The notes under the pieces: model-generated
The model's database searches: none
Told to the model about the DNA's origin: nothing
Seen by the model: only the letters and a program-made list of their open reading frames with translations
In this document: positions 1-25,803 of the stretch, in pieces
Layout: the number at the start of each line of letters is the position of its first letter
How positions within the stretch are numbered: the first letter of the stretch is position 1
Made by a program: the position numbers and the translations under genes
NCBI GenBank assembly: GCA_033064195.1
Contig: JARBJD010000447.1
Location: 1 to 49,087, forward strand
DNA: 49,087 nt
Origin: Blattamonas nauphoetae
Taxonomy: Eukaryota
Direction of reading: 5' to 3'

Positions 1-1057
1 TGCAGGAATAACTCGTGCCAGTCGAGGATAATCCAGCAGATACTGGGAAAGAGTAATAGACAATGTGATTTCAATTCAATTCAATCCAGAAGTAGCATCC
101 TGAAGTAATGGGACCAGATGAAGCGAAGAACATCTTTCAGGATTCGACGAATTACCAACAGAAGGACATCAGAGAATGAAGAAGAAAGGATTTCCAGGAG
201 CAGGTGTATCCACAGTTTCTAGAATTCATCACAAATCAAGAAATTTGCAAACATTCCTTGATGAGACATAGTACTGCATGGCATCAGAGATTAGTACTCT
301 GACACGCCACGAAATATGCAACCAAGAACAGATGAAGATATCAGTCAATACCAATCTTCAGATATGCCAGCTTACTCTCAATATGTTCAGTAACAAGAAG
401 AAATGTCTGATTAAAACATTAATATATATTTTTATTTTTATGAAAGTGATGCAACCAATTCTCAGTTGTCAATTTACGAAACACAAGTTCTTCTTCAGTC
501 CCAACATCAATCACCAACAATGTCATCATCGACAATAAAGGTTCGAATTCTGAGATCTAAGCTCGAAGATCGTAATGAACAAAGCGCTAATGTCAGACTC
601 GATAATGTTCAGGTGTTTATGATCCACCACTAGAGACATATCCATCAGCCCCCATTCAAAGTCGTTCTATTCCACTTCGAGAATATATTTCAAATATTTC
701 GGCATTCAAAGATCAGTTATTACTCGTCTACAAGAATGCATTCGCTTGTGAAAAGAAACTATTGAATAATCTCATTGAACCATCAGAAACTGATCACGAA
801 CCAAAGTGATTTATGTGCACTGATTGCTACACTCACTGGGATTAATGATGTGGTGATCGAACTGGATATCTGACAAGTGCCTATGTCTGAATAAACTCCC
901 AGTGTTTAGAACCATTTTCAAGATCCTTGTTGGTGGAAAGACATGAGTATTGCCTTCAATGAAGCATGTAACACCATTCCTCAATTATGGCATTTCTCTG
1001 ACGAAAGCAATTCCTCGCTAAAATTATAAATGGTGTATTTTTTCTTTTTTTCTATAA

Positions 1058-1367
1058 ATGGCACCAAGGAAGTTTCAACAAACTCAAAAATATCGGCAAA
1101 CAATTCTTTCAATTCATCAAACCTCTAGCTCCAACATTCCTTCAAGTTGGTGGTGGATTGCTCTCACAAACGAACAGTAAATTTGGACAAACAGCAGGTG
1201 GAATACTCAATGGATTAGGAGGAATGATGGACGTTTATCAACAAAATAAGGCGATCAATCGAGCACAGAAACCGCAGATGATTGATTATGAACCACCTCG
1301 AAATGGGAGATACTCCAATGATGATATGCCACTCTCGTCAAATTCCAAAATTCAATTCAAAGGATAA
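1058..1367 (+). CDS. Small protein with N-terminal amphipathic helix (one frameshift shortly after the start); possible membrane-lytic/core virion protein
   Basis: ATG at 1058 follows TTTTTTTCTATAA. After a frame change it reads FNKLKNIGKQFFQFIKPLAPTFLQVGGGLL, continuous with ORF 1158..1367. The N-terminus resembles the next gene (MAP...KLxxxGKxxxxxxxP). Confidence 0.5.
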
Positions 1368-1404
1368 ACATTCACTCGTATTCGAATATTTTATTTTTAT
1401 TAAA

Positions 1405-1713
1405 ATGGCACCAGGTTGGTTATCAAAATTAGCAGCAGTTGGCAAAAATATACTCAGAGTTGGAGCTCCATTTCTGAATCTCATCCCCTTTGTTGGACCA
1501 CTGATTTCGAAGGTAGCGCAGACAGGAATTGAAATGATACCAGATGTGAAATCGGATCAGCAAATCCATGCAGAGAAGATGGCACAATACGAGCAAGCGA
1601 TCAATGAAGGAAACACTGCAGTAGCGAACAAGCTCAGAGGAGAAATACTGAGACTGGAAGAGAAGCTGAAGCCGAAGGTTAAGGTGAAGAAACCAAAAAG
1701 AAAAAGTAACTAG
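1405..1713 (+). CDS. 102-aa protein with amphipathic N-terminal helix and basic C-terminal tail; possible membrane-lytic/core virion protein
   Basis: ATG at 1405 in TTTTATTTTTATTAAAATG context. Reads MAPGWLSKLAAVGKNILRVGAPFLNLIPFVGPLISKVAQ and ends KLKPKVKVKKPKRKSN. Lies immediately upstream of the capsid-like gene. Confidence 0.6.
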   Translation: MAPGWLSKLAAVGKNILRVGAPFLNLIPFVGPLISKVAQTGIEMIPDVKSDQQIHAEKMAQYEQAINEGNTAVANKLRGEILRLEEKLKPKVKVKKPKRKSN

Positions 1714-1749
1714 AGTTAAAGCATAAATGTAATTTTTATTTTTGTTAAA

Positions 1750-3612
1750 ATGAACTCGCATATAACATCTGACAAACAAAGAACTGGAGCATCATCCTTG
1801 ACTGGAAATACCACTGGAAGGATAGAATACACGAGAGATGACATGGGTCAAATTCAACAACAACTCAGGTCCGAACATTTCATTAATTACCTAATGAATG
1901 ATGGGGCACACAGTACTTCGATTCAAGAATTGAAACCATCAGAGAATGCACGCTTCTACACGGGACAAGAGATAATCATTCCACTGACTGGTAATCAGGA
2001 CATTTGTCAAATTGATGATTCATTCATAACGTTCACCATGACTGCGACTCTGAAAGTTAATAATTGGCAAACAACTGCTGGAAAAATTGGTTCGTACATG
2101 AATGAGAGAATCTTCATCTTCGTTGGACTCAAGCATTCAGCATCAATCTTTCGTGACCTTACTGTTCTTCACAACAATCAGAGAATCATCTGCACAACAA
2201 ACAATGATGTCTCAATGGAATCACACATCTACAATATGATAAAACCGAAGAGTCAATTGGAGAATCGAAAACATTGTCACACACCTTGGAAAAACGCATG
2301 GGAGCATGATGAATCTGTAGCTGGTGTCTATATTCCACTTTCTGATTTTACAACAACATCTGGAACAGGGGTGTTTCAAGACACAATTGATGTGCCAATT
2401 CGCGTGTCAATCAATCTTGAAGATCTTCTCATTTTCTCTGGAATGACTGACTATCCAAAATATCTCTTTGGTGATTTGAAATTGAGTGTGCACATGAATG
2501 AGGATGCGTTTGTTTGTTGTTCTGTGAATCCTGAACTTACTTTGAAAGATACACTATCATCACTCGTAACTGGAACAGCAGCAGCACCAACGATTAAAGC
2601 AGCAATTCTCAATTGTATTCAACATCGTCCCTATTTCTTGAATAACCTTGTCACCTCATGCACAAAGAATTTCGTTCAAATTGGCCAATCATTTCTTCAA
2701 CCAACCGTTACTAAAGACATTGTTTGTTCAACAGCCAATGCCGTGACAACAGAACCAGAATTCGTCGATCAGTACATCTCATTAAACGTCACAAACTATC
2801 GGATTGATGATGTGTATTGCATGAGTGCTGGATACAAAATGAAAGATGGTGCGATAAAGAATCTGAAGCAGATGTACACAAATCGTCCTGGAACAATTCC
2901 GGCAGAAAAGATCTTATTCTATCCATTTCAGAAGACACCAACGGCAACAGGAATTGATTGTACTCAGCAAATGGTAGTGGTGAATGCCAAGGATATCATG
3001 CTTCTCTTCCGTCACTACGACAATGAAGTCACTTGCTTCCACAATCCAATGCAGAAGAACATCCAAGTGACTTTACAAAACAGGTATTATCCAGAACAAC
3101 CAACGACAACTATTGGAGCTCGCTTCTATCAGTTCGCATTATCGACTCTCAATCTCGATTCGTACCTAGCTGTTCCTGATGATTTGGAGCGATCACTGAC
3201 GGATTCTCTCGTTGAAGAGAAACTCACTGGTGACGGAACATATCCCAATGAAACAATGACAAGAGTTCGTCCAGTTCATGACAATACTGACTTCCTTCTG
3301 TGCTTTCCTACTCAAAGAAGTGGATGTCCAACGAACTGCAATGATTCCATCAGTTCAAAAGGAAACACTGCGGTCACTTTGAGATCGCATCCAATCTATC
3401 AGGGTAATCTTGACACATACTATAATGTTTACAACCCAAGTCAAAGTGGAGGTGATATGACAACATTTACTCATCCTCCAGCACCGATTCTAGCAACCAC
3501 TGCAACAACGTGGTGGGTCTTGCGATACAGCAATGGAGAACCAAAAGTTGAGTACTATCCTAATCACACATTGAAAGCATTACATAAAGATTTAGGAATT
3601 ATTCCAAATTGA
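1750..3612 (+). CDS. Putative double-jelly-roll major capsid protein of a Polinton-like virus
   Basis: Intact 620-aa ORF with beta-strand-like patterning (IIIPLT..DDSFITFTMTATLKV, FIFVGLK, YPKYLFGDLKLSV, C-terminal PPAPILA..WWVLRY). Size and gene context fit a major capsid protein; the fold is inferred. Confidence 0.65.
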   Translation: MNSHITSDKQRTGASSLTGNTTGRIEYTRDDMGQIQQQLRSEHFINYLMNDGAHSTSIQELKPSENARFYTGQEIIIPLTGNQDICQIDDSFITFTMTATLKVNNWQTTAGKIGSYMNERIFIFVGLKHSASIFRDLTVLHNNQRIICTTNNDVSMESHIYNMIKPKSQLENRKHCHTPWKNAWEHDESVAGVYIPLSDFTTTSGTGVFQDTIDVPIRVSINLEDLLIFSGMTDYPKYLFGDLKLSVHMNEDAFVCCSVNPELTLKDTLSSLVTGTAAAPTIKAAILNCIQHRPYFLNNLVTSCTKNFVQIGQSFLQPTVTKDIVCSTANAVTTEPEFVDQYISLNVTNYRIDDVYCMSAGYKMKDGAIKNLKQMYTNRPGTIPAEKILFYPFQKTPTATGIDCTQQMVVVNAKDIMLLFRHYDNEVTCFHNPMQKNIQVTLQNRYYPEQPTTTIGARFYQFALSTLNLDSYLAVPDDLERSLTDSLVEEKLTGDGTYPNETMTRVRPVHDNTDFLLCFPTQRSGCPTNCNDSISSKGNTAVTLRSHPIYQGNLDTYYNVYNPSQSGGDMTTFTHPPAPILATTATTWWVLRYSNGEPKVEYYPNHTLKALHKDLGIIPN

Positions 3613-3659
3613 AAACATTAAAAGAAAATAATGATATTGTATTTTTTATTTTTCTATAA

Positions 3660-5353
3660 ATGAGAAGTTTCAGATCTAATCAATCAAAACCAACATCGAC
3701 ATTAATTGAGCAAATTGAAGTGCAATCATATCTTCCAAAACAGTGGGATTCAGAACCTCATGTATATTCAATTCAGGAAGTGCATCCAACAAATCCTCCC
3801 ATGCCATGCAGAATTGGAGACGAGATTGAAGTTCCATTGTGCTATGACGGACATGATGTTACTGAGTTTGCGAAGAGTCATTTGCGTATCGATCTAACGA
3901 TTACTGTTCCATATACATATCCATCAGATGCGGATGCTTCAGAGTCAGCTGGATTGTACGGAATGTTCTACGGTTACAAATCATCATCAGATGCCATTCG
4001 AGACATGAGACTGGTTGACAGTAAAGGAAACATTATTGACAATACACTCCAGAATAATCATGTTCACGAATCATTTCTGTATCACACTTTCAAGTCGTAT
4101 GAAGAAAAAAACAACATGAAGCATTGTTACAGTCTGTGGGAAAATGTTCAGAGAATGGATCCAAGTGTGTGTGGATTCTACTATGTTCCAACACTCACTG
4201 GGATGAAAAAAACATTCACTGCAACGATTCCACTGGTAATTCCGTTTGTGAATCTCCTTCCACTGAGTACCTTTGATCAGTATCCAAATTCGATTTTTGG
4301 TAATTTACGTTTGATGATTTCACTTGACAACTGATTCACTTGTGTATTGTCCCATTCGAACTTCAACTGTTGTAAGAAAACACTTGAGATGATGAAAGAT
4401 CGATATCCAGATAAAGACGAGCCTCGTCTCGCACCAGAAGGGCAAATGAGTCTCATGTTCGATGGAGAATACTCTAATTTGACACAGGAATTTACACAAA
4501 TTGGTAATCCAATACTTCAATTCGATGACAATATAATGCCTTCTGTGAATTCATTTTACATTTCATATATCAAAACCAAATCCTTCACAGCCACTGTTCT
4601 TTCATCTTCGATAGATACAGTGTCTTCGATTTGTTACGGATATCAAATCACTGATGCAACGAAGCAGTCACTCTTCAACACATATTCAAAGACTCTGTAT
4701 GTCCTGAAAGCTGAAAGAATTGACACACAATCGTTCCAATCACAAGCAACAGCAATGGGAGTGAGATCAAACATCAGTATCAAGCTCAACAATCTCATGA
4801 ATCTTATGTGCTTATTCCTGAAAGACCAAATGAATGTACAGTCTTCAGAAATCCTCATTATGTTGGCTTATTCGAAATGCTTGGATCCAACTTTCCCAAT
4901 TTCCCGATGTCAACACTCTCGCCAGAGTTCTATCAAATGATGATGGTGAATGGTGATTTTATCGGTTGTTCCGCGACGGAAGAGTTTGAGAATTCAATCT
5001 GTATGTCACGCAATTCTACCTGTTTTGGAAAGGAGTTCAAGAGAACCAGAGCAGTTACGGATGCTACTTCATTCACATTCATGGTTCCAACAGATCGAAG
5101 TGAAATCGCTGGTGGAGAAGAAGGTATTTCAACAGCAGAATCAGTGAATATCGTCTACAGAGGATCACCAATCAATCAGGGAGAACTCGATCCATATTTC
5201 ACCTCAACTCCAGAAGGTCCTCCTCCTCCAATTCTAGCACTACATCAAGCAACATACTGGTTATTCTGGATTGAAAATGGACAACCACGAGTGCGATATG
5301 TCATTGATCGTCGACTCCAAGAAGCGTATGAAGAAGTGAAGAGAGGTTATTGA
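3660..5353 (+). pseudogene. Second capsid-like paralog, broken by frameshifts near 4326, 4375 and 4808
   Basis: ORFs 3660..4334, 4347..4940 and 4808..5353 align colinearly with 1750..3612. Examples: ESFLYHTFK..NMKHCYSLWEN vs ESHIYNMIK..NRKHCHTPWKN; YPNSIFGNLRL vs YPKYLFGDLKL; PPPPILALHQATYWLFWIENGQPRVRY vs PPAPILATTATTWWVLRYSNGEPKVEY. Confidence 0.75.
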
Positions 5354-5393
5354 ACAGAACAAATATGATATTTTATTTTTGTAGAAAACAGAA

Positions 5394-5804
5394 ATGGTGA
5401 AGCGCTATTTCTCAATTCAGAATTCTCACACTGCTCAATTGCCTCCTGATTTTACCAATTCCAGAAACCAAAAATATGTTCACTTTCTCGACTGCAAACT
5501 TATTCATGTGAAGGAAGAAATTAATGGTAACTCAACTGTCATCTCAAAAGACATTCCTCAGCACATTACAATCCATGGTGATTGGATCCAGACTGATGCA
5601 TTCAATGACTCATTTGTTGCTTTCTGTAACGAACAGATTGCGAAGCGAAAGAAGTGGGAATTAAGCACTCGACAATCAATTGTGAAGATCTGGTTCAAAG
5701 ACAGTTCTGGTGAATCAATTGAGATGGAAACAACGGAGACAATCAATGGAAAAATAACCAAAGAGTATTATGAATTTCTGGTTGATCTCATGTTGGAGTA
5801 TTAA
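5394..5804 (+). CDS. Small beta-rich protein, candidate single-jelly-roll minor capsid (penton) protein
   Basis: 136 aa with alternating hydrophobic strands and C-terminal YEFLVDLMLEY. Last gene of the capsid cluster, with a T-rich upstream motif. Confidence 0.45.
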   Translation: MVKRYFSIQNSHTAQLPPDFTNSRNQKYVHFLDCKLIHVKEEINGNSTVISKDIPQHITIHGDWIQTDAFNDSFVAFCNEQIAKRKKWELSTRQSIVKIWFKDSSGESIEMETTETINGKITKEYYEFLVDLMLEY

Positions 5805-5816
5805 TGCTTCGCATTT

Positions 5817-6686
5817 CTATGATGACGGAGTCATGGTATTTGTCAGGGAATTATATTTTTGTGAAAGTTCATTGATGAGTGTCTGTTGTTGTCCGACAAT
5901 GCTGCTCAGTTCCTGAATGGCTTTCACACAAAAGCACGAGAGTTCTGCGTAGTCAACTTGAAGACAATCTGGATTGGAATCATTCACGACTTCAGGAAAG
6001 ATTTCTTGGATCTGTTGTGCAATCACACCAATGTGTTTCTTCTCACTTTCCTTCTTCAAGCATTCACATTTCTCTTTGCAGTTCTTCAAGTGTTCTTCAT
6101 TGGTTTCATTCTCGATTTGTCTTGTAACTTTGTTGATCTTCGAGTCGAATGTGTTGAATTGATATTGCACAATTTCAACTTTATTCAGTTGTTCAAGAAC
6201 ATCAGGATATGGTTCAATATTTCTTTTCACTCTTCTGTCTGACAGCTGAGAAAAACTTCCTGTTGTAGATATTGGAAACACTCCTGAACCAGTGTCCTCA
6301 TCGTAGTAATAGAGTGCTGGTTTGTCACAGGGAGACCACATAATAATGCCATCACCATTGAACTGAATTCCAGAAGTTTCTGCAAGTGATTGTGATATAG
6401 AAACGCCAGAAGAAAATGTTGATGCCGGATATGTTCCAGGATACTTCGGAAGTGATCCTTCTGAGATATTCCACTTCGCTCCATTCACATTGATCAATCC
6501 TCCAATTGTTGGTGTCGTGATCGATCCATTTGTGCTCACCACTTTCTGAATTGAAGATATCGCATTCTTGTGTGCTTCTGTTGTCTTCTGTAGTGAGTCA
6601 ATCACTGCTGTATTCTCGTTGGTTGTTGAGAGATTATGATCAATCATTTTCTCAATCATTTGTGAATTGTATTTTTGTCGATTCAT
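5817..6686 (-). CDS. Fibre-like protein with N-terminal coiled coil and C-terminal Peptidase_S74 intramolecular chaperone
   Basis: Contains SDRRVKRNI cleavage motif, HIGVIAQQIQEIFPEVV and VDYAELSCFCVKAIQEL followed by a coiled coil. Likely start is MNRQKY (ATG at 6686); the ORF is open from 6788. Confidence 0.85.
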   Translation of the reverse strand: MNRQKYNSQMIEKMIDHNLSTTNENTAVIDSLQKTTEAHKNAISSIQKVVSTNGSITTPTIGGLINVNGAKWNISEGSLPKYPGTYPASTFSSGVSISQSLAETSGIQFNGDGIIMWSPCDKPALYYYDEDTGSGVFPISTTGSFSQLSDRRVKRNIEPYPDVLEQLNKVEIVQYQFNTFDSKINKVTRQIENETNEEHLKNCKEKCECLKKESEKKHIGVIAQQIQEIFPEVVNDSNPDCLQVDYAELSCFCVKAIQELSSIVGQQQTLINELSQKYNSLTNTMTPSS

Positions 6687-8256
6687 TTTTGGTTGTTGAC
6701 TTTTTATGGGAGTAAAAATTCTCCACTGAACAAACCATATCAACTTTTTTTCGTCATTGATTTGACTTTCCTCTATTTCAATCATCACTTCACATCAAGA
6801 AATTTGCCTCATTATGCACAATTCTGACATTTCGTTTGCGTAAATGAAGAATGGGTGGAAGATCTACAACAATGGGAAGAACAACGCCAACTCTCGATTC
6901 TGATGTTTGCCACCATTTCTGTTCCTGATATTGTTTTCACAGCTCATTCGAAAACTCTCCTTCGTGCTCGGAATCAATCCTCAACCATACTTAAGCGTTA
7001 AGCCAAGTACAGCTCTTCAGATGCTGTGCGAGCTGTTGGGATGCGGAGGTCCAAGGCGTACTCTGCCGCAACTGTGTAAGTACATTCGGTATCTTCTCTG
7101 CCGAGTGTTTTTCGCACTTCAAAATGTTATTCGACATTCGCTCTATCGAATCCAGTCTCGAACTCTTCTACAAATACGTATCCTCATCGACAAAGGGTTG
7201 GATGAATGTAATTTCGATGGACAACGCGACCTTGTATCTCTATTGGTGGTGGGAGTCAATTTCACAATGACGACGAAGGAACACTATCAAGAATTTCTAA
7301 GCATGGAGGAAACTAATGATGTTGATCAAATCCGCGTTGAAACCTCAAAATCTGCGCACGACACAATCGAAGCACTGATTGTGTCACTAAACACCGTTCC
7401 GACCGAAAGCAATTCGCCGTCGTTCATCCCTTTGGACGATAGCTTAAATCAGAGCGATGCGCGGGATGGTTAGTTTGTTCACTTTTGTTCAAAGATTTCC
7501 AATCATTCGATTTTTTGTTTCTCTAAATTTGATGAAAAGCCGCCTTCTTTCCAGAGACACCAGGTGAAATGAAGAGTAGAAGAAAAGTTAGTTTTGAAAT
7601 CTTTTCACGATAATTATCAATAACAGTATTCAATCAAAAACAGTGAAACGTTATCACCTCTCTATCAAAAGATCAATGTGTAAATTTCGTAGAACCAGAA
7701 CACTACAAAAGTAGTCAATCAAAACGGTAAAGAAAAGAGAACACATTCACTTGGAGAGTCTAGAAGCCTATGTGATATGAATTTTAATCCGAGAAAAATG
7801 ATACAAACCAAAAAGTCGCGTGAACGTGAAAGCTGAGTTCAATGTGATGGATGTCTAGGAAACTCATGAAAAATTCATACTTTCTGAAACCGATGTGTTA
7901 CACAAGATATTGAATTTGCCTGAAAGAAAAGAAAGTACATAGCGAGAAAAGTGATGCGTGGTACATACGTTTTTAACTTTTTGTATAAGATGATCTGATG
8001 AAAATCAAAGAGAATACCGAAGGAAAATGACATACATATTTCCGATTCAATTTTAGCGGGCCAGTTAGCTACCTAAGTATTTGTGGACACATCGATCTTT
8101 AGCCTCAATGGTTTGATCCTCTCATCTCATTCCTGACGACTCTTTACTGTTTCGTTTAGGTGTGTTTCACTTTCTACTTTCACATTTGTTCTCTTTTCTT
8201 TTTTGACATCTCATTCTTGTTCTCGATCCTTCACTTTTTTCTGTCTCTCTCGTTCA

Positions 8257-9533
8257 GGTACATCACATTGTTTTATGAACGGTGGTTTCATTCCCGACTT
8301 GTTTTGAACAGGTTTGCTCCATTTTTGAATTCATTCTTTCCTAAAACTTACTTATGTACCAACGCCGATCAAACCGAAAGTGGACCTGAAGATCAGGTAC
8401 ACAGATGCGTTTTATCGCTTAAAAGTATGTCTCTCGTGATTTACCAAACAGGTATTCTCTTCTTTTTTATTCATCTTTTCATAAAACATCTTCATGTACT
8501 CGATCTGCGTGATCATCAAACTCAGGTACACTATTGCGTCTTATGACCAGAAAGTGCTGTTCACTGAATATTTGAAACAGGTTTGCTCTCTTTTTTGTAT
8601 TATCTCTTTATAAGACACAATGACGTACCAGAATTTTCACTTCACTTTTGACATTCTCTTTTCTGGTACAACACTTCACTTTATCCTCTCATTTTCACTT
8701 CATTGTCAATTTTTTCTCATTGTCTCTCACTTTTTTACAAAATTAAAATTTAAAATGACGTGAACAAAATTTTGATCCTCATCTTTGCTCAAAAAACTTC
8801 GTGATTCATCGATAAAATTGTATGCGTTGGTACACCACTTTGTTTTACTTTCATTCAACTTTCATTTCACCTTTTACACTTCACTACTCTTCGATTTGTG
8901 CTCTTCATTTTTTCTAAAACACAACGGTGTACCAACAAAACGCGATCTGAAGTGATCATCCAGATCAGGTACACCACTTCACCTTATCGTTTCATTTCAC
9001 AACTATTTGATTTCAATTCTCTTTTTTGATCAAAACAAGGTAGAACACAGAACTAAAAATGTTTGATCGTCAAGATAAAAATGAACTGTGAGATCTGGTA
9101 CATGAATGTGTTTTATCACTTCAAACCTTGTTTCACTTCACAATTTTGATCTCTTTATTGACATTTTTGCTCTAATCTTTCATAAAACAAAGTGGTGTAC
9201 CAACGAGACTCAATCTGAAATGATCGGTGAGATCTGGTACATGAATGTGTTTTATCGTTTAGTTCTCACTTGAATCATTGTTTTTTACTCTTGTTTTCTG
9301 AAATTTTGATGAACGCGTTCATAAGGTGAAGTGGTGTACCAACGAAGTGAGAAAAACAATGACTGGAGAGATCTGGTACGTCACTTCACCTTATCGTTGC
9401 TAACATTGTTTCACTTCACAATTTTACTCTAATTAGAAACATTTTGGTCAAACTCGTTCATAAAGTGAAGTGGTGTACCAACAAAACACAAAGAATCAAG
9501 ATCGCTCCGATCTGGTACATGATTTTGTTTTAT
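8257..9533. repeat. Array of about 10 degenerate ~139-bp units built from inverted bipartite GGTAC-N11-TTAT motifs
   Basis: Forward GGTAC starts at 8257, 8396, 8525, 8665, 8829, 8968, 9097, 9236, 9375 and 9514. Reverse copies ((A/C)TAA-N11-GTAC(C/T)) start at 8341, 8481, 8610, 8914, 9182, 9321 and 9460. Confidence 0.9.
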
Positions 9534-10694
9534 CGTCTCATTCTCACTTCATTTACATTTTAGTACTCTAGTTTTGTGAAATTTAGATGAAGATGTTCAT
9601 CAAACTCAATACTTTCCCACCATTTTCACTATTTCCATTTCACCATTCACTATCATACTTGCCCACTTCATTTTAGCTTCATTCACCTTCATTTGGTCTA
9701 ATTAAGAGAAAAAGTCGACGAAAAATGAAGTATTGTGATGTGCTCGTGAAGTGTGAATGACTGAAAAATGGGTTGTAAAATGAGGGGAATGAAGAGGAGA
9801 GTTGAATACCTGAAATGTGAAACGTGGAAAGTGAAATGAGAGATGAAAGGTGTTGAAGTCGTTTAAGCTTAGACAAACGGTATGATGGAAAAACACATAA
9901 AACCAACATTATGAAAAAACTAGTCGTTAAAAGTGTCGCGAAAATTCAGTACTCCCTCCTCGAAAGGTGAGAAAGAAGATGTGATGTGAGAAAATCGGGG
10001 CAAAAATCGATATGAGTGAAAAGTTGGTGAAAATGTGGTGCAAAAAAGGTGCGTTCAAAAAAAGAGGACTATGAAGGTGAGGTGATCGGGAACCTAGGAA
10101 AAGCGTCGGAAGGACGCGAATGCGAAGAAAACGAAAAATCTAACGCAAAAAACGAAAACTGACCAAAAAAGTGGTGAAAGATGAGGTGCAAAAGTGAACG
10201 TTCGAAGAGCCGCCAAAAGGCGACTCCGAGCGAAATGAAGTGTAAAAACGCAAATAGGAGGCAAAAGTGATCCTAAAAAGTGAAGTGCTGAAAGCGCATA
10301 CATTTTTTTTAAAATTCGGAGAAACTCGAAAAATGGAATATGGGTTGATCTAGAAAAATCCCGATCCGGCCTTGATCTAACCAAAAATTCCAAAAGTGTT
10401 TTTTATCGCGAATTTCACCTTCTGAAATCGATTTTGTAATTTTAGAAGGTGTTTGAGGTGTGTTTGAGCCATTTAGCAGCAGTTTTAAGCAAGTTCTGAA
10501 AATCGACTTTTTGGTAACTTTTTCGACCACTGTTCGGTACGTAGCTCCGCGAATTCTCAACCGATCTTCATCAGGATTGTTTTGATCGACGACTCACATC
10601 GTCTCCGACATTTTAGAATTTTTTTCGATTTTTTTCGAAGTGGTTCTCAAGTTGGATTCACTTTGTTGTGGTCAAAAATAGATTTTCAGTGTTT

Positions 10695-11288
10695 TCATGA
10701 CCTCTCGTGGTACTTTCTCAAGTGAGGACGGTCTCCAAAATACAACCAATTGTCTAGTCGAACGTAATACTCATTCTTTGTTCGTAAATCGCGATATTTG
10801 AATGGCTCAAGTACCTTTGTGTATGTTCCAATGAGTTCGCAATTCTCTTTTTTCAATACATTTTCAACAAATGATTGAGTGTAATGTTTTCGTTGACAAT
10901 TATGAGCTCGATATCCTTTCATCCATTTCGAGGGAATCACTTTCCATTCGATTCCTTCGTACCGGTATGTGACAAGTGAATCAGCATACTTGTATTCAGA
11001 AATGAGTTCACAATTTTCATTTTTCAATGATTCGAGAAACTTTTCTTTCGTGCAACAATTAGATGCTGAAAGATATCTCTGGCGATTCAGATGTGGTCTG
11101 TATCCTTTGACGAAATTATTGACATACGCTCGATAAATGTCATCTGGTTTATCTTCGTGCACGTATTCGAAAGTACTCGCCGTGAGATATGTTGTTCCTT
11201 GTCGATTGAGAGTTGGTGGTGATTTCAGAATCAATTTTTCTTTCTCCAAAATTTCCAGTAGTTGAGTTGGTGTCAAGACAGAGCTCAT
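10695..11288 (-). CDS. Viral-type repeat protein (CapR-homology/DUF723-like repeats), possibly DNA-binding
   Basis: Internal repeats FLESLKNENCELISEY..WMKGYRAH, FVENVLKKENCELIGTY..WLYFGDRPH and LLEILEKEKLIL..FVKGYRPH. The start MSSVLTP sits in T-rich...TAAAATG context on the minus strand. Confidence 0.55.
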   Translation of the reverse strand: MSSVLTPTQLLEILEKEKLILKSPPTLNRQGTTYLTASTFEYVHEDKPDDIYRAYVNNFVKGYRPHLNRQRYLSASNCCTKEKFLESLKNENCELISEYKYADSLVTYRYEGIEWKVIPSKWMKGYRAHNCQRKHYTQSFVENVLKKENCELIGTYTKVLEPFKYRDLRTKNEYYVRLDNWLYFGDRPHLRKYHERS

Positions 11289-13320
11289 TTTATCCAAATT
11301 AAAAAATTGAATAAAAAAAGAAATCGACTTTGTTTTCTGAAAGCACTCAAAATTTGCTTCAAAAAAGACGCTTCAAAAGAGGTCCAAATATTTGACATAT
11401 TTTTGGAATTTAGGTCAAATATTGACATCGTCAAAATGCATAAAAGACTTTTAGTTCAAGATTCAAAAGTGGGTCAATCGGAATTGAGATTTGACTTCTA
11501 TTTATCGATCGAGACCAACGTGGTTCTTAATTCTTCTCTATAACTACTATATTTACTTCATTATTGCTTGATATTACAACAATTCATGGATATTATACTC
11601 AATATTTCTTCATCTCTTCTTTCAATGCCATTATCGTGATTCATCTCATTTTTCAATGAATTGTTCACATTTTCCACAAAATTTTCTTGTTGGTGAGTAT
11701 AGAGGAAGTAATCGGAAAACATTTCATGACTATTGTACAAATTCTGGGCCTAGCCGAATAAAACCGGTTATTTATATTTTAGCTGGTTTTGTGGAGGGTC
11801 TACAGGGTATCTCATAAGTCTTGGATCTCGCGATTTGTGAGAGACCAACAAAGCTTCATGATTCATGGCGTTCGTTTTGTGTATCCTCTCTTCTTTTGTC
11901 ACCTTTCTGCAGATGAAAGGAACTGTGAGATGTCATTCATCCCTCTGTCCAACTCATGGCAAGGATCGTCAACAATCATTTATGATGTTGTGTCGTCCAG
12001 AATTGAAGTGAATAATTGTCAGAGGTCTGCTTCTTTCTCGCCAAAAGTGCTTTGTTCCATCCATTCTCAGAAACGTTGCACCTCGTCATCATCAACCAAA
12101 ATCAACGCACCTCTTTTCGAATCAGAACAGGTTCATCGATGACCAAATCGCTTTTTCCTCGCTTCGTTCTCCGAGAACTTTCACCCTCTCTGGTTTTGGG
12201 AAGTATAGAAGACTCAGAGTTGTCGAGTTTGATCACTTGATTCACAATCACCATTTTTTCAGCATCAGGACAATCATAATTCCTGGGATCCATTCAACCT
12301 GACGAAAATGTCTCACAAAGTCGGAAGCATTGTCTGGAATCATCAGGAAGTACTCTGAAGGATCTCTCACGAAATGACCAAACTTGACGTTCTGTCTCGC
12401 TGATGAATCGAGTTGATGAACTCCTCTCTCGTTGGATCAATTCAGTTTGCCTCTATCACTTGAATTTTGATTCATTTGTTTGTGATTTCTGCTCCAGACT
12501 TCAAGAACGAACCAATCTCCTCCAATGGGATCACTTCTTTCAAAATTAGGCATTGGTTGGGATATAATCCATCATAACGAAGTCATTCACAAAACACCAA
12601 GAAAAACTCAACCATTATCTTTGATGACACTGATTGTGCTGTCTGCGGCGTCTCTATTTTTCAACCACCTCCAAAACTGTCAGTTCTGGGAGTTTGTCCT
12701 TTTCATCCTCAATTTCCGGTTGTTGGAACCATTTTTCTCAACATTTCCATCTTGTGAATCCACATCCTTCCAAACCATCGAGATAACAATCCAACCATTT
12801 CGATCATTGTGAATCCTCTCATAGTCTTCCAAACAACCAAATTGCCGATTCTCGTCGGTACGTTGCTCATCTCTGAATGAAAAATCCGTTGTAGGACTAA
12901 GTCACGTATACTCTTCTGAATGGTTGTTGTGGACCGTGTCGCTTTTTTGTTCAACGTTGTTCTCACTTCTCTCTGCACCATTCCTCTTTACTTTGATTTT
13001 CACTATGAGAATCTGTCCAAGGATTGTGTGAATGAATGGATAATTCCTGAAACACATGATTGACAGAGATCTCGATGATTTCCAAGACTTATGGGATACC
13101 CTGTATAATTCTCAGAGGCGAGACTTGTTTCTTATCTTATGATTCCGAGGTCCATGTAATCTTTTCTGATGGTTGAATCGGACTGAGGAACTCACATTCA
13201 AAGAGATTGCGGTGATACTGGAAAAGACACCACTCACAGTCCGGCAAAGAAAGGGCCTTAGCTCCATCTGATCCTCTCTCACCTCTCGAATCAAGTCTCG
13301 AAGTATTTCCGGTCCGAGTC

Positions 13321-23829: not shown

Positions 23830-25803
23830 TTAATGATAAGGTAGATTCGTGACAGAAAGGTTGCCCAGCTTCTTGACCAATCGAGTGCTTGGAGTCCGTG
23901 TACCATATGGTCGATTCAGTAGTACTTCATCATCAGATTCTGATTCATTCTCTGTCCGTCTTTGCGGCCTCTTAAATTTGGTGATTTTGCTCAGAATTGA
24001 GTTGATCTCTTCAGGAGATATCGACTCACTGGATGTGTCCGTCTTCATGGCTAGGAGGAGAGCATTACGTCGCTCGACACGACATAGCGTATCGTGTTTT
24101 GTCGGACATTCTGAGACGGGAGTCTGTTCCGGATATGATCTGATCACTCTTGGAGGCGTAGATTTTGGCTTCACAAATTGGACAATTGTCCACAGGTTGA
24201 GAGGAAGACATGCAAATGGCGAAGCGTATACACAGCCATTTTCGACTTTAAAATTCAGAAAATCTTTGATGCGTGGGAGGGTGTACGTCTCAAAGAGTTC
24301 TGTTGACTCAATTTCCACCAAATGGAAACTGTGTGAAGGCGGAATATGTTTCAGTTTGATCTGTGAACGAAAAAAGGCGATAAGTTGTTGAACTGTCGTA
24401 ATTGAGTTGTCAATTTTGGATGATCGGAGACAGCTTGCGAGGACTCCGAAGGCTCCGTCGCAGACGCACTTCCCATGCCCCTCGCAAAAAAAGGCGACTG
24501 ATACCGTGCATTGGGGTAGATAGGCCTGTAATCCAAAGAAAACAAAATGGAGAAAAGAGCCGGAACGAAAATGAGGGCCAGTATCGGACCAAAGATATAG
24601 GTGGGTGAGAGAACGAAAGTCAGACATGAGAAGGAGATCTCTGAAGCAATGGATGACATGTTGTGTGTCATGATTTAGTGTTTTCGAGAGGAAGTGGAAA
24701 TATCGAATTTGGTGGGTTTGATCATCTTGTTTTGTGAACAGTGCAAAACCAAGATGGGATATTTGCTGTTTCTTATAAAAATCTTTGGAATGTTGTTCAG
24801 GGGAGACGCACAGGCGCCAATTTTCTTTGAAATCAAAGACGAGCAGTCCTTGTCCCTTTTGGAGTTGTTCCACTTGAGAATGATACGAGTCTCTTGTTAT
24901 TCTCGCTTGTTCCTTGTGGTCTTCGAGAATTTGTTTCTCTCTTTCTCTCCTTGCGAGAGTTCTCTTCCTTGACTGTGAAGTGATGATTCCTGCCGCTTCA
25001 GTTGATCCAGTCTTCCGCAACGATTGCATATATCCGTCCTCCTTCTTGGTTTTGAGAGATGCTTGCAAAATCGGCGAAATGACGATTTCGAGATTCGATT
25101 TGCTGGATGTTCTTGACAGTACAACTGATGTAGGTTTTTTGAGAATCATTGAGAGTTCGAGCCGACCATTTCCATTTATATCTGTCTGTATTGAATTTTT
25201 GGGGAGATTGTCATGGTCCCTTGATTGTTCTTGTCGGACCGCTTCTTCAACGAATTCAGGTTTTGTTTTTTTTGTTTGTGCTGTACACGATTCCACTGAA
25301 TGTTTGTGAAGGAATGTGTGGACCAGTATCTGTGTTTCCACGGGAATTGAATGTCTGGATTGGTTTTGGATTGGTGATCTTTCTGGTGGGTATAAATTCA
25401 GGCGCTTCAAACGATATGGATGGCGTAGAGTGTTTTGATCTATACCAAATCGGTATTTTTTGAAGTCTTCAAAGGTGAAGACTTGCAGAAGAGCAGTGAG
25501 CAGGAGAACTTTGGAGTGCTTGGACATTGATAAGAATGCGAGACGAAGTTGTTTCATTAGGCTGTCGAAGGATTCTACTTGAAGAGAATAAGAAGTTAGA
25601 AATGACAGAAATAAACCAAGATGTTTGCGACGAAGGGCATCTTCCACTTTCTTTCCTTCTGATGTGTGTTCAATCGTAAACTTGAGTAGGGCCTCCGGGT
25701 TCAGATGATCGAGTTCTTTCGCTCTATTGATGATCTGTCTGGCACGAGCTTGACTTGTTTTACGTGTTACGCGATATTCGGTATTCATTCTGATCAGACC
25801 CAA
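23830..25803 (-). CDS. DDE-type transposase, probably Sola-like, with two compensating frameshifts
   Basis: Motifs VFDFKEN, LWSDTGPHFRS and FFCEGHGKCVCDGAFG. An alternative frame (24897..25124) supplies YCQEHP..ISKSSFRRF..TDICNRC. No TIRs were found by eye and the superfamily call is tentative. Confidence 0.7.
   Translation of the reverse strand: MGLIRMNTEYRVTRKTSQARARQIINRAKELDHLNPEALLKFTIEHTSEGKKVEDALRRKHLGLFLSFLTSYSLQVESFDSLMKQLRLAFLSMSKHSKVLLLTALLQVFTFEDFKKYRFGIDQNTLRHPYRLKRLNLYPPERSPIQNQSRHSIPVETQILVHTFLHKHSVESCTAQTKKTKPEFVEEAVRQEQSRDHDNLPKNSIQTDINGNGRLELSMILKKPTSVVLSRTSSKSNLEIVISPILQASLKTKKEDGYMQSLRKTGSTEAAGIITSQSRKRTLARREREKQILEDHKEQARITRDSYHSQVEQLQKGQGLLVFDFKENWRLCVSPEQHSKDFYKKQQISHLGFALFTKQDDQTHQIRYFHFLSKTLNHDTQHVIHCFRDLLLMSDFRSLTHLYLWSDTGPHFRSGSFLHFVFFGLQAYLPQCTVSVAFFCEGHGKCVCDGAFGVLASCLRSSKIDNSITTVQQLIAFFRSQIKLKHIPPSHSFHLVEIESTELFETYTLPRIKDFLNFKVENGCVYASPFACLPLNLWTIVQFVKPKSTPPRVIRSYPEQTPVSECPTKHDTLCRVERRNALLLAMKTDTSSESISPEEINSILSKITKFKRPQRRTENESESDDEVLLNRPYGTRTPSTRLVKKLGNLSVTNLPYH

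What the first reader, a model, noticed from the sequence alone, without database searches (positions are those of the whole stretch)
8257..9533. Phased array of inverted bipartite GGTAC-N11-TTAT sites (139-bp period) in the viral non-coding arm
Seen: about 17 motif copies keep an exact 11-nt spacer while the spacer sequence varies. Forward-copy spacings are 139, 129, 140, 164, 139, 129, 139, 139 and 139 bp. In six units a reverse copy precedes the forward copy by 34-35 nt (24 nt in a seventh), giving ATAA-N11-GTACC-N34/35-GGTAC-N11-TTAT. Geometry is conserved far better than sequence, as expected for a protein-binding array rather than a neutral satellite. Known analogues: bipartite adenovirus packaging A-repeats (TTTG-N8-CG) and palindromic baculovirus hr origins/enhancers. 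Inference: a packaging signal, origin/enhancer or recombination array. An array of structured small RNAs cannot be excluded.
Basis: partly seen in the sequence, partly recalled or inferred. Interest (0 to 1): 0.75.

Follow-up and report, generated by a model that had tools for sequence, protein, structure and literature searches.

The report
Helically phased binding-site array in protist virus
A multi-copy virus-like element in a protist genome carries 17 copies of one 20-letter DNA site, alternating in direction at spacings close to whole turns of the DNA helix, which likely forms a protein-binding platform, perhaps for the element's replication.

Summary
There are 13 exact and 4 one-mismatch sites, all in 8257-9533, against 0.15 expected by chance.

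New here:
- The 'N11' is not free; the site is one asymmetric 20-bp consensus of about 26 bits.
- Forward-to-reverse spacing is 84-85 bp in 7 of 7 intervals and reverse-to-forward is 54-55 bp (once 44), about 8, 5 and 4 helical turns. Both short units lack exactly 10 bp.
- In sequencing contigs of other copies (one sample), 0 of 34 listed variable places hit a motif letter (p=0.012). Unit number varies while the register is kept.
- Neighbouring arms are no more complementary than random pairs, which argues against hairpins or RNA.

The context is an endogenous Polinton-like virus (predicted double jelly-roll capsid, phage-like fibre), with a three-repeat basic protein 1.2 kb away as candidate ligand. 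A protein-binding platform is likely (about 0.85). Its job is inferred: origin/enhancer about 0.4, packaging signal about 0.2. A terminal repeat, binding, and linkage in most copies are not shown. My searches found no paper and no earlier scan note on such an array in these viruses.

The parts
8257..9533 (.). Array: 10 forward and 7 reverse copies of a degenerate 20-bp site (consensus about GGTACAYSANTKYRYYTTAT); 139-bp unit = 85 + 54
8257..9533 (+). Forward sites (20 bp each) starting at 8257, 8396, 8525, 8665, 8829, 8968, 9097, 9236, 9375, 9514
8341..9479 (-). Reverse sites (20 bp each) with low coordinates 8341, 8481, 8610, 8914, 9182, 9321, 9460
9599..9618 (-). Decayed reverse site at +85 from the last forward site; loose contig ends suggest an intact reverse site near this end of the array in some other copies
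   Evidence: table 7
8110..10357 (.). Strand-skew domain: + strand pyrimidine-rich over 8110-9698 (purines 0.40, TTCAC 21 vs GTGAA 4), flipping to purine-rich over 9700-10300 (0.70, 0 vs 9)
10695..11288 (-). 197-aa basic protein (pI 9.1) with three internal repeats; weak likeness to DUF723/CapR-type DNA-binding repeats; candidate ligand (inferred)
1750..3612 (+). Major capsid protein, predicted double jelly-roll; homologues include Streblomastix strix proteins
3660..5353 (+). Second capsid-like paralogue, in three ORF pieces in this copy (the first piece is 27% identical to the major capsid protein; the other two were not compared)
5394..5804 (+). 136-aa ORF; homologues lie on the capsid-bearing contigs L003, L011, L012 (also L014); function not found
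5817..6785 (-). Phage-tail-fibre-like gene with a C-terminal Peptidase_S74 chaperone
6943..8010 (.). Low-depth variable segment between the capsid block and the array (approximate bounds from depth bins), with a 150-aa ORF at 7021-7473

Best explanation
The array holds 17 copies of one asymmetric 20-bp DNA site in alternating orientation at near-whole-turn spacings, is likely a protein-binding platform of the endogenous Polinton-like virus, and most likely serves as its replication origin/enhancer. SHOWN: the sites, the 85/54 geometry, loss of exactly 10 bp in both short units, motif letters spared among listed variants of other copies, variable unit number with kept register, and the neighbouring capsid and fibre genes. 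INFERRED: protein molecules bind on one face of the helix and touch their neighbours, so whole-turn deletions and unit loss are tolerated but other indels are not. The filled array would bend or loop the DNA next to the purine/pyrimidine switch at 9698. The binder would be the three-repeat basic protein at 10695-11288. The purpose would be to start or boost replication and transcription of the excised element, as baculovirus hr arrays do. Odds: platform about 0.85; this ligand about 0.4; this job about 0.4.
For: Chance is excluded. Centre-to-centre distances are 8.0-8.1 turns forward-to-reverse (7 of 7) and 5.1-5.2 turns reverse-to-forward (6 of 7), with the seventh at 4.2. At 10.7 bp/turn, 15 of 16 intervals are within 0.15 turn of whole. 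In-register linkers are only 39-41% alike (shuffled 32%), yet align almost without gaps. A crude drift model gives P=0.001 for 7 of 7 linkers within 1 nt at indel/substitution 0.05. Of 34 listed variable places inside the array, 0 fall on the 153 motif positions (expected 4.1, p=0.012) and 3 on the 340 site positions (expected 9.1, p=0.009). Joints with known inserted letters give net lengths equal to the forward-to-forward distance in 5 of 5 rows from X2-X4, which are three distinct joints of 139, 268 and 710. The neighbouring protein sits on the same high-depth segment, is basic and has three repeats. Its Atlas neighbours include DUF723/DUF4379/CapR clusters at 0.91-0.92, domains described as DNA-binding in PMC10448857 and PMC8096241 (passages). 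A sharp skew flip adjoins the array.
Against: No binding, replication or expression data exist. No replicase or integrase gene is in the window, because the contig starts inside the element; if the virus is protein-primed it would need no internal origin (own knowledge). The 164-bp interval is out of phase, and 3 of 10 units lack a good reverse site. The drift test is weak at low indel rates (P=0.04-0.26 at ratio 0.02) and counts only units that kept a reverse site. Only 40 of 88 variable places were shown, and all four runs are one sample, possibly the window's own. In X1, 1 of 7 joint rows is exact, 5 are off by 1 and one by 5. The 197-aa protein has no Pfam or meaningful PHROG match, its Atlas recognition of 2008 is in the weak range, and it lacks the CxxC...CxC zinc motif described for CapR. 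The arm's summed depth is roughly a tenth to a third of the capsid block's, and a low-depth kilobase separates them, so many capsid-bearing copies may lack this array or carry a diverged one.
Confidence: 0.4

Rival explanations
1. Genome-packaging signal: redundant, same-face sites recognised by the virus's packaging ATPase and an adaptor, like adenovirus A-repeats.
For: It shares fixed internal length, whole-turn spacing and redundancy with A-repeats (PMC5033970 passages: TTTG-N8-CG, 21-bp spacing equal to two turns). It lies beside the structural gene block.
Against: The array ends about 2.2 kb before the high-depth segment ends near 11,750, whereas the adenovirus domain must be within 600 bp of the ITR. 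The internal 11 nt are constrained, not free. Arm depth is well below capsid depth. No ATPase gene is in the window.
Confidence: 0.2
2. Centromere-like partition or tether cassette: the 197-aa protein coats the array to keep an excised episome with host chromosomes, or the 3.6-kb arm is a self-contained module that spreads among virus copies.
For: The array and the candidate binder share one high-depth block (about 8,100-11,750) bounded by low-depth DNA on both sides. Unit number is flexible. Protein-plus-array cassettes do this job in EBV, KSHV and plasmids (own knowledge).
Against: There is no evidence of an episome. No terminal repeat bounds the block. The protein shows no second domain beyond the three repeats.
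Confidence: 0.15
3. Site-specific recombination array (tyrosine-recombinase-type sites that invert or resolve DNA).
For: Identical sites occur in opposite orientation: 8825-8847 = 9183-9205 (23 nt) and 8968-8987 = 9321-9340 (20 nt). The forward site at 8829 carries a reverse-type flank. PLVs often encode tyrosine recombinases (PMC10120064, PMC11296320, passages).
Against: No strand-changing joint was among the 15 of 21 listed. The identical pairs keep their order rather than reversing it. Nothing coding lies between the sites, and no recombinase gene is in the window.
Confidence: 0.08
4. Neutral old minisatellite whose motif is only a remnant of duplication and gene conversion.
For: Recent two-unit duplications exist (277-bp offset, 74% identity). 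The drift test is not decisive at low indel rates.
Against: Forward and reverse sites are 55% alike across the N11, while their 11-nt flanks are 30% and 23% alike. Motif letters are spared among copies. Length changes are whole turns or whole units. Tandem Repeats Finder does not detect it.
Confidence: 0.07
5. Array of hairpin small RNAs or single-stranded DNA hairpins.
For: Reverse+forward windows fold better than shuffles as RNA (z -1.7 to -4.4 in 6 of 6); one pair is a full stem with G-U pairs.
Against: Partner arms are no more complementary than random forward/reverse pairings (38 of 77 vs 42.5 +/- 5.5; p=0.37-0.80 in all six tests), so the folding follows from the shared motif. No Rfam match approaches its gathering score.
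Confidence: 0.05

Closest known systems
Baculovirus homologous regions (hrs; origin and enhancer arrays)
   Same: Non-coding viral array of repeated inverted elements with variable unit number. PMC4535591 (search listing, abstract start) describes three to eight 64-bp units, each with a 24-bp imperfect palindrome, acting as origin and enhancer.
   Different: Here the inverted halves are 20-bp asymmetric sites separated by 34-35 and 65 nt of non-palindromic DNA. Units are only 32-75% alike, one array is seen in the part held, and no IE1-like gene is present.
Adenovirus packaging A-repeats (TTTG-N8-CG)
   Same: Fixed distance between invariant ends, redundancy, and spacing in whole helical turns (PMC5033970, passages).
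   Different: The inner letters are constrained here. The sites alternate in orientation with a 139-bp period over 1.3 kb, more than 2 kb from the apparent end.
Metamonada-group Maverick-Polintons/PLVs (PMC10120064; 10.64898/2026.06.19.733378; passages)
   Same: Divergent capsid recognisable only by structure, with homologues in Streblomastix strix; multi-copy in a protist genome.
   Different: No cis-acting site array appears in the passages read. That this capsid belongs to their MMN cluster was not tested by a tree.
EBV oriP repeats, KSHV terminal repeats, plasmid iterons and parC (recalled, no call)
   Same: Helically phased arrays of sites for one element-encoded protein.
   Different: Those have near-identical or much shorter units and known binders; here the linkers have drifted to about 40% identity and the binder is unproven.
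CapR / DUF723 / DUF4379 DNA-binding repeats (PMC8096241, PMC10448857; passages)
   Same: Tandem small repeats without a nuclease domain; language-model neighbours at 0.91-0.92.
   Different: No HMM match and no four-cysteine zinc motif in the 197-aa protein; eukaryotic-virus setting.

Membership tests
Polinton-like virus / Maverick-Polinton | Double jelly-roll major capsid protein | tested here: met
   AF2 model pLDDT 89.6; top fold matches are iridovirus, PBCV-1 and virophage capsids at E 1e-13 to 1e-15
Polinton-like virus / Maverick-Polinton | Integrated, multi-copy in a eukaryote genome | tested here: met
   Contiguous with host genes on a telomere-capped contig; depth far above host flanks (one sample, not a true copy number)
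Polinton-like virus / Maverick-Polinton | Packaging ATPase, polymerase or primase-helicase, integrase or recombinase | not testable with these tools
   The contig starts inside the element and no genome is held; none found in 1-1,406, 6,800-8,241 or the ORFs scanned
Polinton-like virus / Maverick-Polinton | Terminal inverted repeats | tested here: inconclusive
   Only one end is present; arm depth is lower, not higher, than interior depth
Adenovirus A-repeat packaging domain | Two fixed motifs with a fixed-length, sequence-free spacer | tested here: not met
   Length is fixed but the spacer carries about 10 bits
Adenovirus A-repeat packaging domain | Repeats on one face of the helix | tested here: met
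   15 of 16 intervals near whole turns; geometry only
Adenovirus A-repeat packaging domain | Within about 600 bp of the terminal repeat | tested here: inconclusive
   About 2.2 kb from the end of the high-depth segment; the true terminus is not known
Baculovirus hr | Each unit centred on a contiguous imperfect palindrome | tested here: not met
   Inverted sites are 34-35 nt apart, with no partner-specific complementarity
Baculovirus hr | Origin and enhancer activity with a viral transactivator | not testable with these tools
   Needs bench assays
Structured RNA array | Partner arms co-vary | tested here: not met
   Six permutation tests, p=0.37-0.80; no Rfam family at gathering score
CapR/DUF723 DNA-binding family (197-aa protein) | Profile match and CxxC...CxC zinc motif | tested here: not met
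   No Pfam hit to E 10 and motif absent; only a language-model lead
Tyrosine-recombinase site array | Strand exchange at the sites; cognate recombinase | tested here: inconclusive
   No strand-changing joint in 15 of 21 listed; contigs are short and the element is incomplete

The most novel reading that the evidence does not exclude
The array and the adjacent three-repeat protein are a matched cis/trans pair. This would be the first identifiable genome-recognition signal of a Polinton-like virus (packaging or centromere-like tether), built from a nuclease-free homing-endonuclease-type DNA reader and 17 helically phased sites. It would make directly testable how these viruses pick out their own DNA.
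Probability: 0.2. Interest if true: 0.8.

Novelty: new variant of a known kind. Interest (0 to 1): 0.55.

Why it matters
My searches found almost nothing on the cis-acting DNA signals of Polinton-like viruses; one paper proposes the terminal repeats as origins (PMC11296320, passages). This array has a defined 20-bp site, a spacing rule that predicts which insertions should break it (5 bp yes, 10 bp no), and a small candidate binder next door. That gives an immediate in-vitro test and a marker for finding origins or packaging signals in related elements. It also points to an apparently undescribed virus family, abundant in this protist genome.

Tried and rejected
- Word-indexed protein searches found no relatives of the capsid or the 197-aa protein, and only five distant S74-domain proteins for the fibre. 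None of the six viral or arm proteins looked up is in the collection by exact sequence.
- Motif-pair scans of viral contigs gave one locus each. L001 lies inside coding-like DNA and L019 is a perfect palindromic contig; both were rejected as chance or artefact.
- The three-site pattern has 0 matches in prokaryote genomes.
- The 17 metagenome loci with related capsids are 1.3-4.4 kb long and hold no motif. They are too short to reach an equivalent arm, so this is no test.
- Viral-contig scans with the capsid alignment and the 197-aa protein found no relatives.
- The single-sequence fold was unusable. Phage tblastn and PDB sequence searches for the 197-aa protein gave nothing useful.
- No RNA holder was listed; this is no evidence on expression.
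- Two paper searches returned 0 papers.
- The hairpin/RNA and simple-satellite readings were tested and disfavoured.

Full report
OBSERVATION. The pattern GGTAC-N11-TTAT occurs 13 times exactly in the window, all in 8257-9533, against 0.15 expected. With one mismatch allowed there are 20 hits. Seventeen form the array, one (8451) is an out-of-register weak match inside it, and two lie elsewhere. A weight matrix from the 17 retrieves only these 17 above 9 bits. Of spacer lengths 5-19, only 11 works.

ANATOMY. The site is a continuous, asymmetric 20-mer of about 26 bits. The inner 11 letters carry about 10 bits, against a mean of 1.9 for random array 11-mers. Forward and reverse copies are 55% alike inside and only 23-30% alike in the 11 letters on either side. 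Successive distances are forward-to-reverse 84, 85, 85, 85, 85, 85, 85 and reverse-to-forward 55, 44, 55, 54, 54, 54, 54. The other two intervals are forward-to-forward, 164 and 129, where the reverse site is decayed. At 10.5 bp/turn these are 8.0-8.1, 5.1-5.2 and 4.2 turns. At 10.7 bp/turn, 15 of 16 intervals are within 0.15 turn of whole, and the 164-bp interval is the exception. Both 129-bp units are 10 bp short. Their flanks resemble different full-length units, so I infer two events, which is not proven. Units in register are 32-75% identical and linkers about 40%, yet the full-length units align nearly without gaps. A crude star-tree drift model makes 7 of 7 linkers within 1 nt unlikely at indel/substitution 0.05-0.1 (P at most 0.03) but not at 0.02 (P 0.04-0.26). 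It counts only units that kept a reverse site. The + strand is pyrimidine-rich through the array and flips to purine-rich at 9698.

OTHER COPIES. Four DNA runs of one sample hold the region. They may be the window's source and are not independent support. Summed depth is very high over 1-6942, low over 6943-8010, high over 8011-11748 and low again beyond. For example, X3 gives 18,000-115,000, then about 410, then 9,000-31,000, then 230-880, with host bins down to 113-159. Single pieces suggest tens of near-identical array copies: X3 has depth 2,649 at 8402-8539 against 49-62 for host pieces, and X2 has 856 against 37. The tool warns that this is no copy number. Overlapping pieces run from the fibre gene through the low-depth segment to 8188 (table 8), so at least a few other copies join capsid block and array. 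No piece spans the whole, and linkage in most copies is not shown. Of 88 variable places, 40 were listed, 34 of them inside the array. None falls on the 153 motif positions (expected 4.1, p=0.012) and 3 fall on the 340 site positions (expected 9.1, p=0.009). Joints skip whole units. Where the inserted letters are given (12 of 18 rows shown), net lengths equal the forward-to-forward distance in 5 of 5 rows from X2-X4 (three distinct joints). In X1 they are exact once, off by one five times and off by five once. None of the 15 of 21 listed joints changes strand.

CONTEXT. The 620-aa ORF has 333 homologues at E up to 0.001, one top cluster being Streblomastix strix proteins. It folds confidently from a 101-sequence alignment (pLDDT 89.6) and matches double jelly-roll capsids of iridoviruses, PBCV-1 and virophages. 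A broken paralogue follows, then a 136-aa ORF with homologues on relatives' capsid contigs and a fibre-like gene with an S74 chaperone. Such fibres are reported in PLVs (PMC12220804; passages and section 16 read). GC is 34-39% in the element and 47% in the host part. This is an endogenous Polinton-like virus by capsid and setting. ATPase, replicase, integrase and TIR could not be tested because the contig begins inside it. An earlier scan note names the host as the oxymonad Blattamonas nauphoetae (not verified by me, consistent). The 197-aa ORF is basic and has three repeats. Its only link to known DNA-binding repeats is a weak language-model lead to DUF723/DUF4379/CapR clusters. HMMs do not confirm it, and the zinc motif reported for CapR (PMC8096241, PMC10448857; passages) is absent.

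MECHANISM. Several features point to a protein platform: conserved letters at both ends of a two-turn site, spacing in whole turns, tolerance of whole-turn and whole-unit loss, and indifference of linker sequence. These are what a cooperative protein array on one face of double-stranded DNA would leave (inference; about 0.85). A hairpin or RNA role predicts that partner arms co-vary, and they do not (six permutation tests, p=0.37-0.80). The good folding scores follow from the shared motif, and Rfam has no match near threshold. For the job I favour an hr-like origin/enhancer (0.4), because of the inverted pairs, flexible unit number, adjacent skew switch and neighbouring candidate binder. Packaging (0.2), a tether or self-contained module (0.15), recombination (0.08), neutral repeat (0.07) and RNA (0.05) follow. 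None of these roles is shown.

COMPARISON. It works like baculovirus hrs (PMC4535591, listing and abstract start only), adenovirus A-repeats (PMC5033970, passages) and, from recall, EBV/KSHV repeats and plasmid iterons. It fails a defining feature of both hrs (contiguous palindrome) and A-repeats (free spacer) and is filed under neither.

NOVELTY. Searches for oxymonad viruses and for repeat arrays, origins or packaging signals in PLVs and virophages showed no description of this element or such an array. Passages of PMC10120064, PMC11296320, PMC10703272, PMC12220804, 10.1101/2024.03.23.586382 and 10.64898/2026.06.19.733378 showed none either. The library lacks most subscription papers, and no supplements were read; those of the PLV surveys could list related elements. 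Earlier scan notes held nothing similar by sequence or words. The three-site arrangement is absent from prokaryote genomes, and the two viral-contig hits were rejected.

VERDICT. The array is real, under apparent spatial constraint, and likely a protein-binding cis-element of a protist Polinton-like virus. Its role and ligand are inferred. It is a new variant of a known kind; interest 0.55.

Noticed in passing
window 11801-13105: A 1.3-kb low-copy segment bounded by a 25-nt inverted repeat (96%) that begins and ends with TA; probably a decayed DNA transposon near the virus-host junction. No Pfam hit in three minus-strand frames.
   Followed up: partly
window 1750-5353: Two tandem capsid paralogues, the second in three pieces in this copy; the family is detectable as a capsid only by fold and appears very abundant in this genome.
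   Followed up: partly
window 8825-8847 vs 9183-9205; 8968-8987 vs 9321-9340: Perfectly identical sites in opposite orientation in the same order; the forward site at 8829 has a reverse-type flank and sits at the only out-of-phase interval. This suggests site-level conversion between orientations; unexplained.
   Followed up: partly
window 6695-8110: Variable slot: some other copies diverge just past the likely start of the fibre gene (loose end at 6695); this copy's version with a 150-aa ORF has low depth.
   Followed up: partly
window 9698: Sharp switch of strand composition, with the short word TTCAC on + to the left and on - to the right.
   Followed up: partly
window 23830-25788 and 40719-43206: ORFs that by eye resemble DNA-transposon transposases (recalled motifs, not searched).
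   Followed up: no
window 38166-38946: 27-bp tandem repeat, 29 copies, 95% matches, inside a long ORF.
   Followed up: no
L012:838-1135: A two-copy direct repeat of about 140 bp (76% identity, 161-bp offset) on a relative's contig, between its capsid and 136-aa-ORF matches.
   Followed up: no
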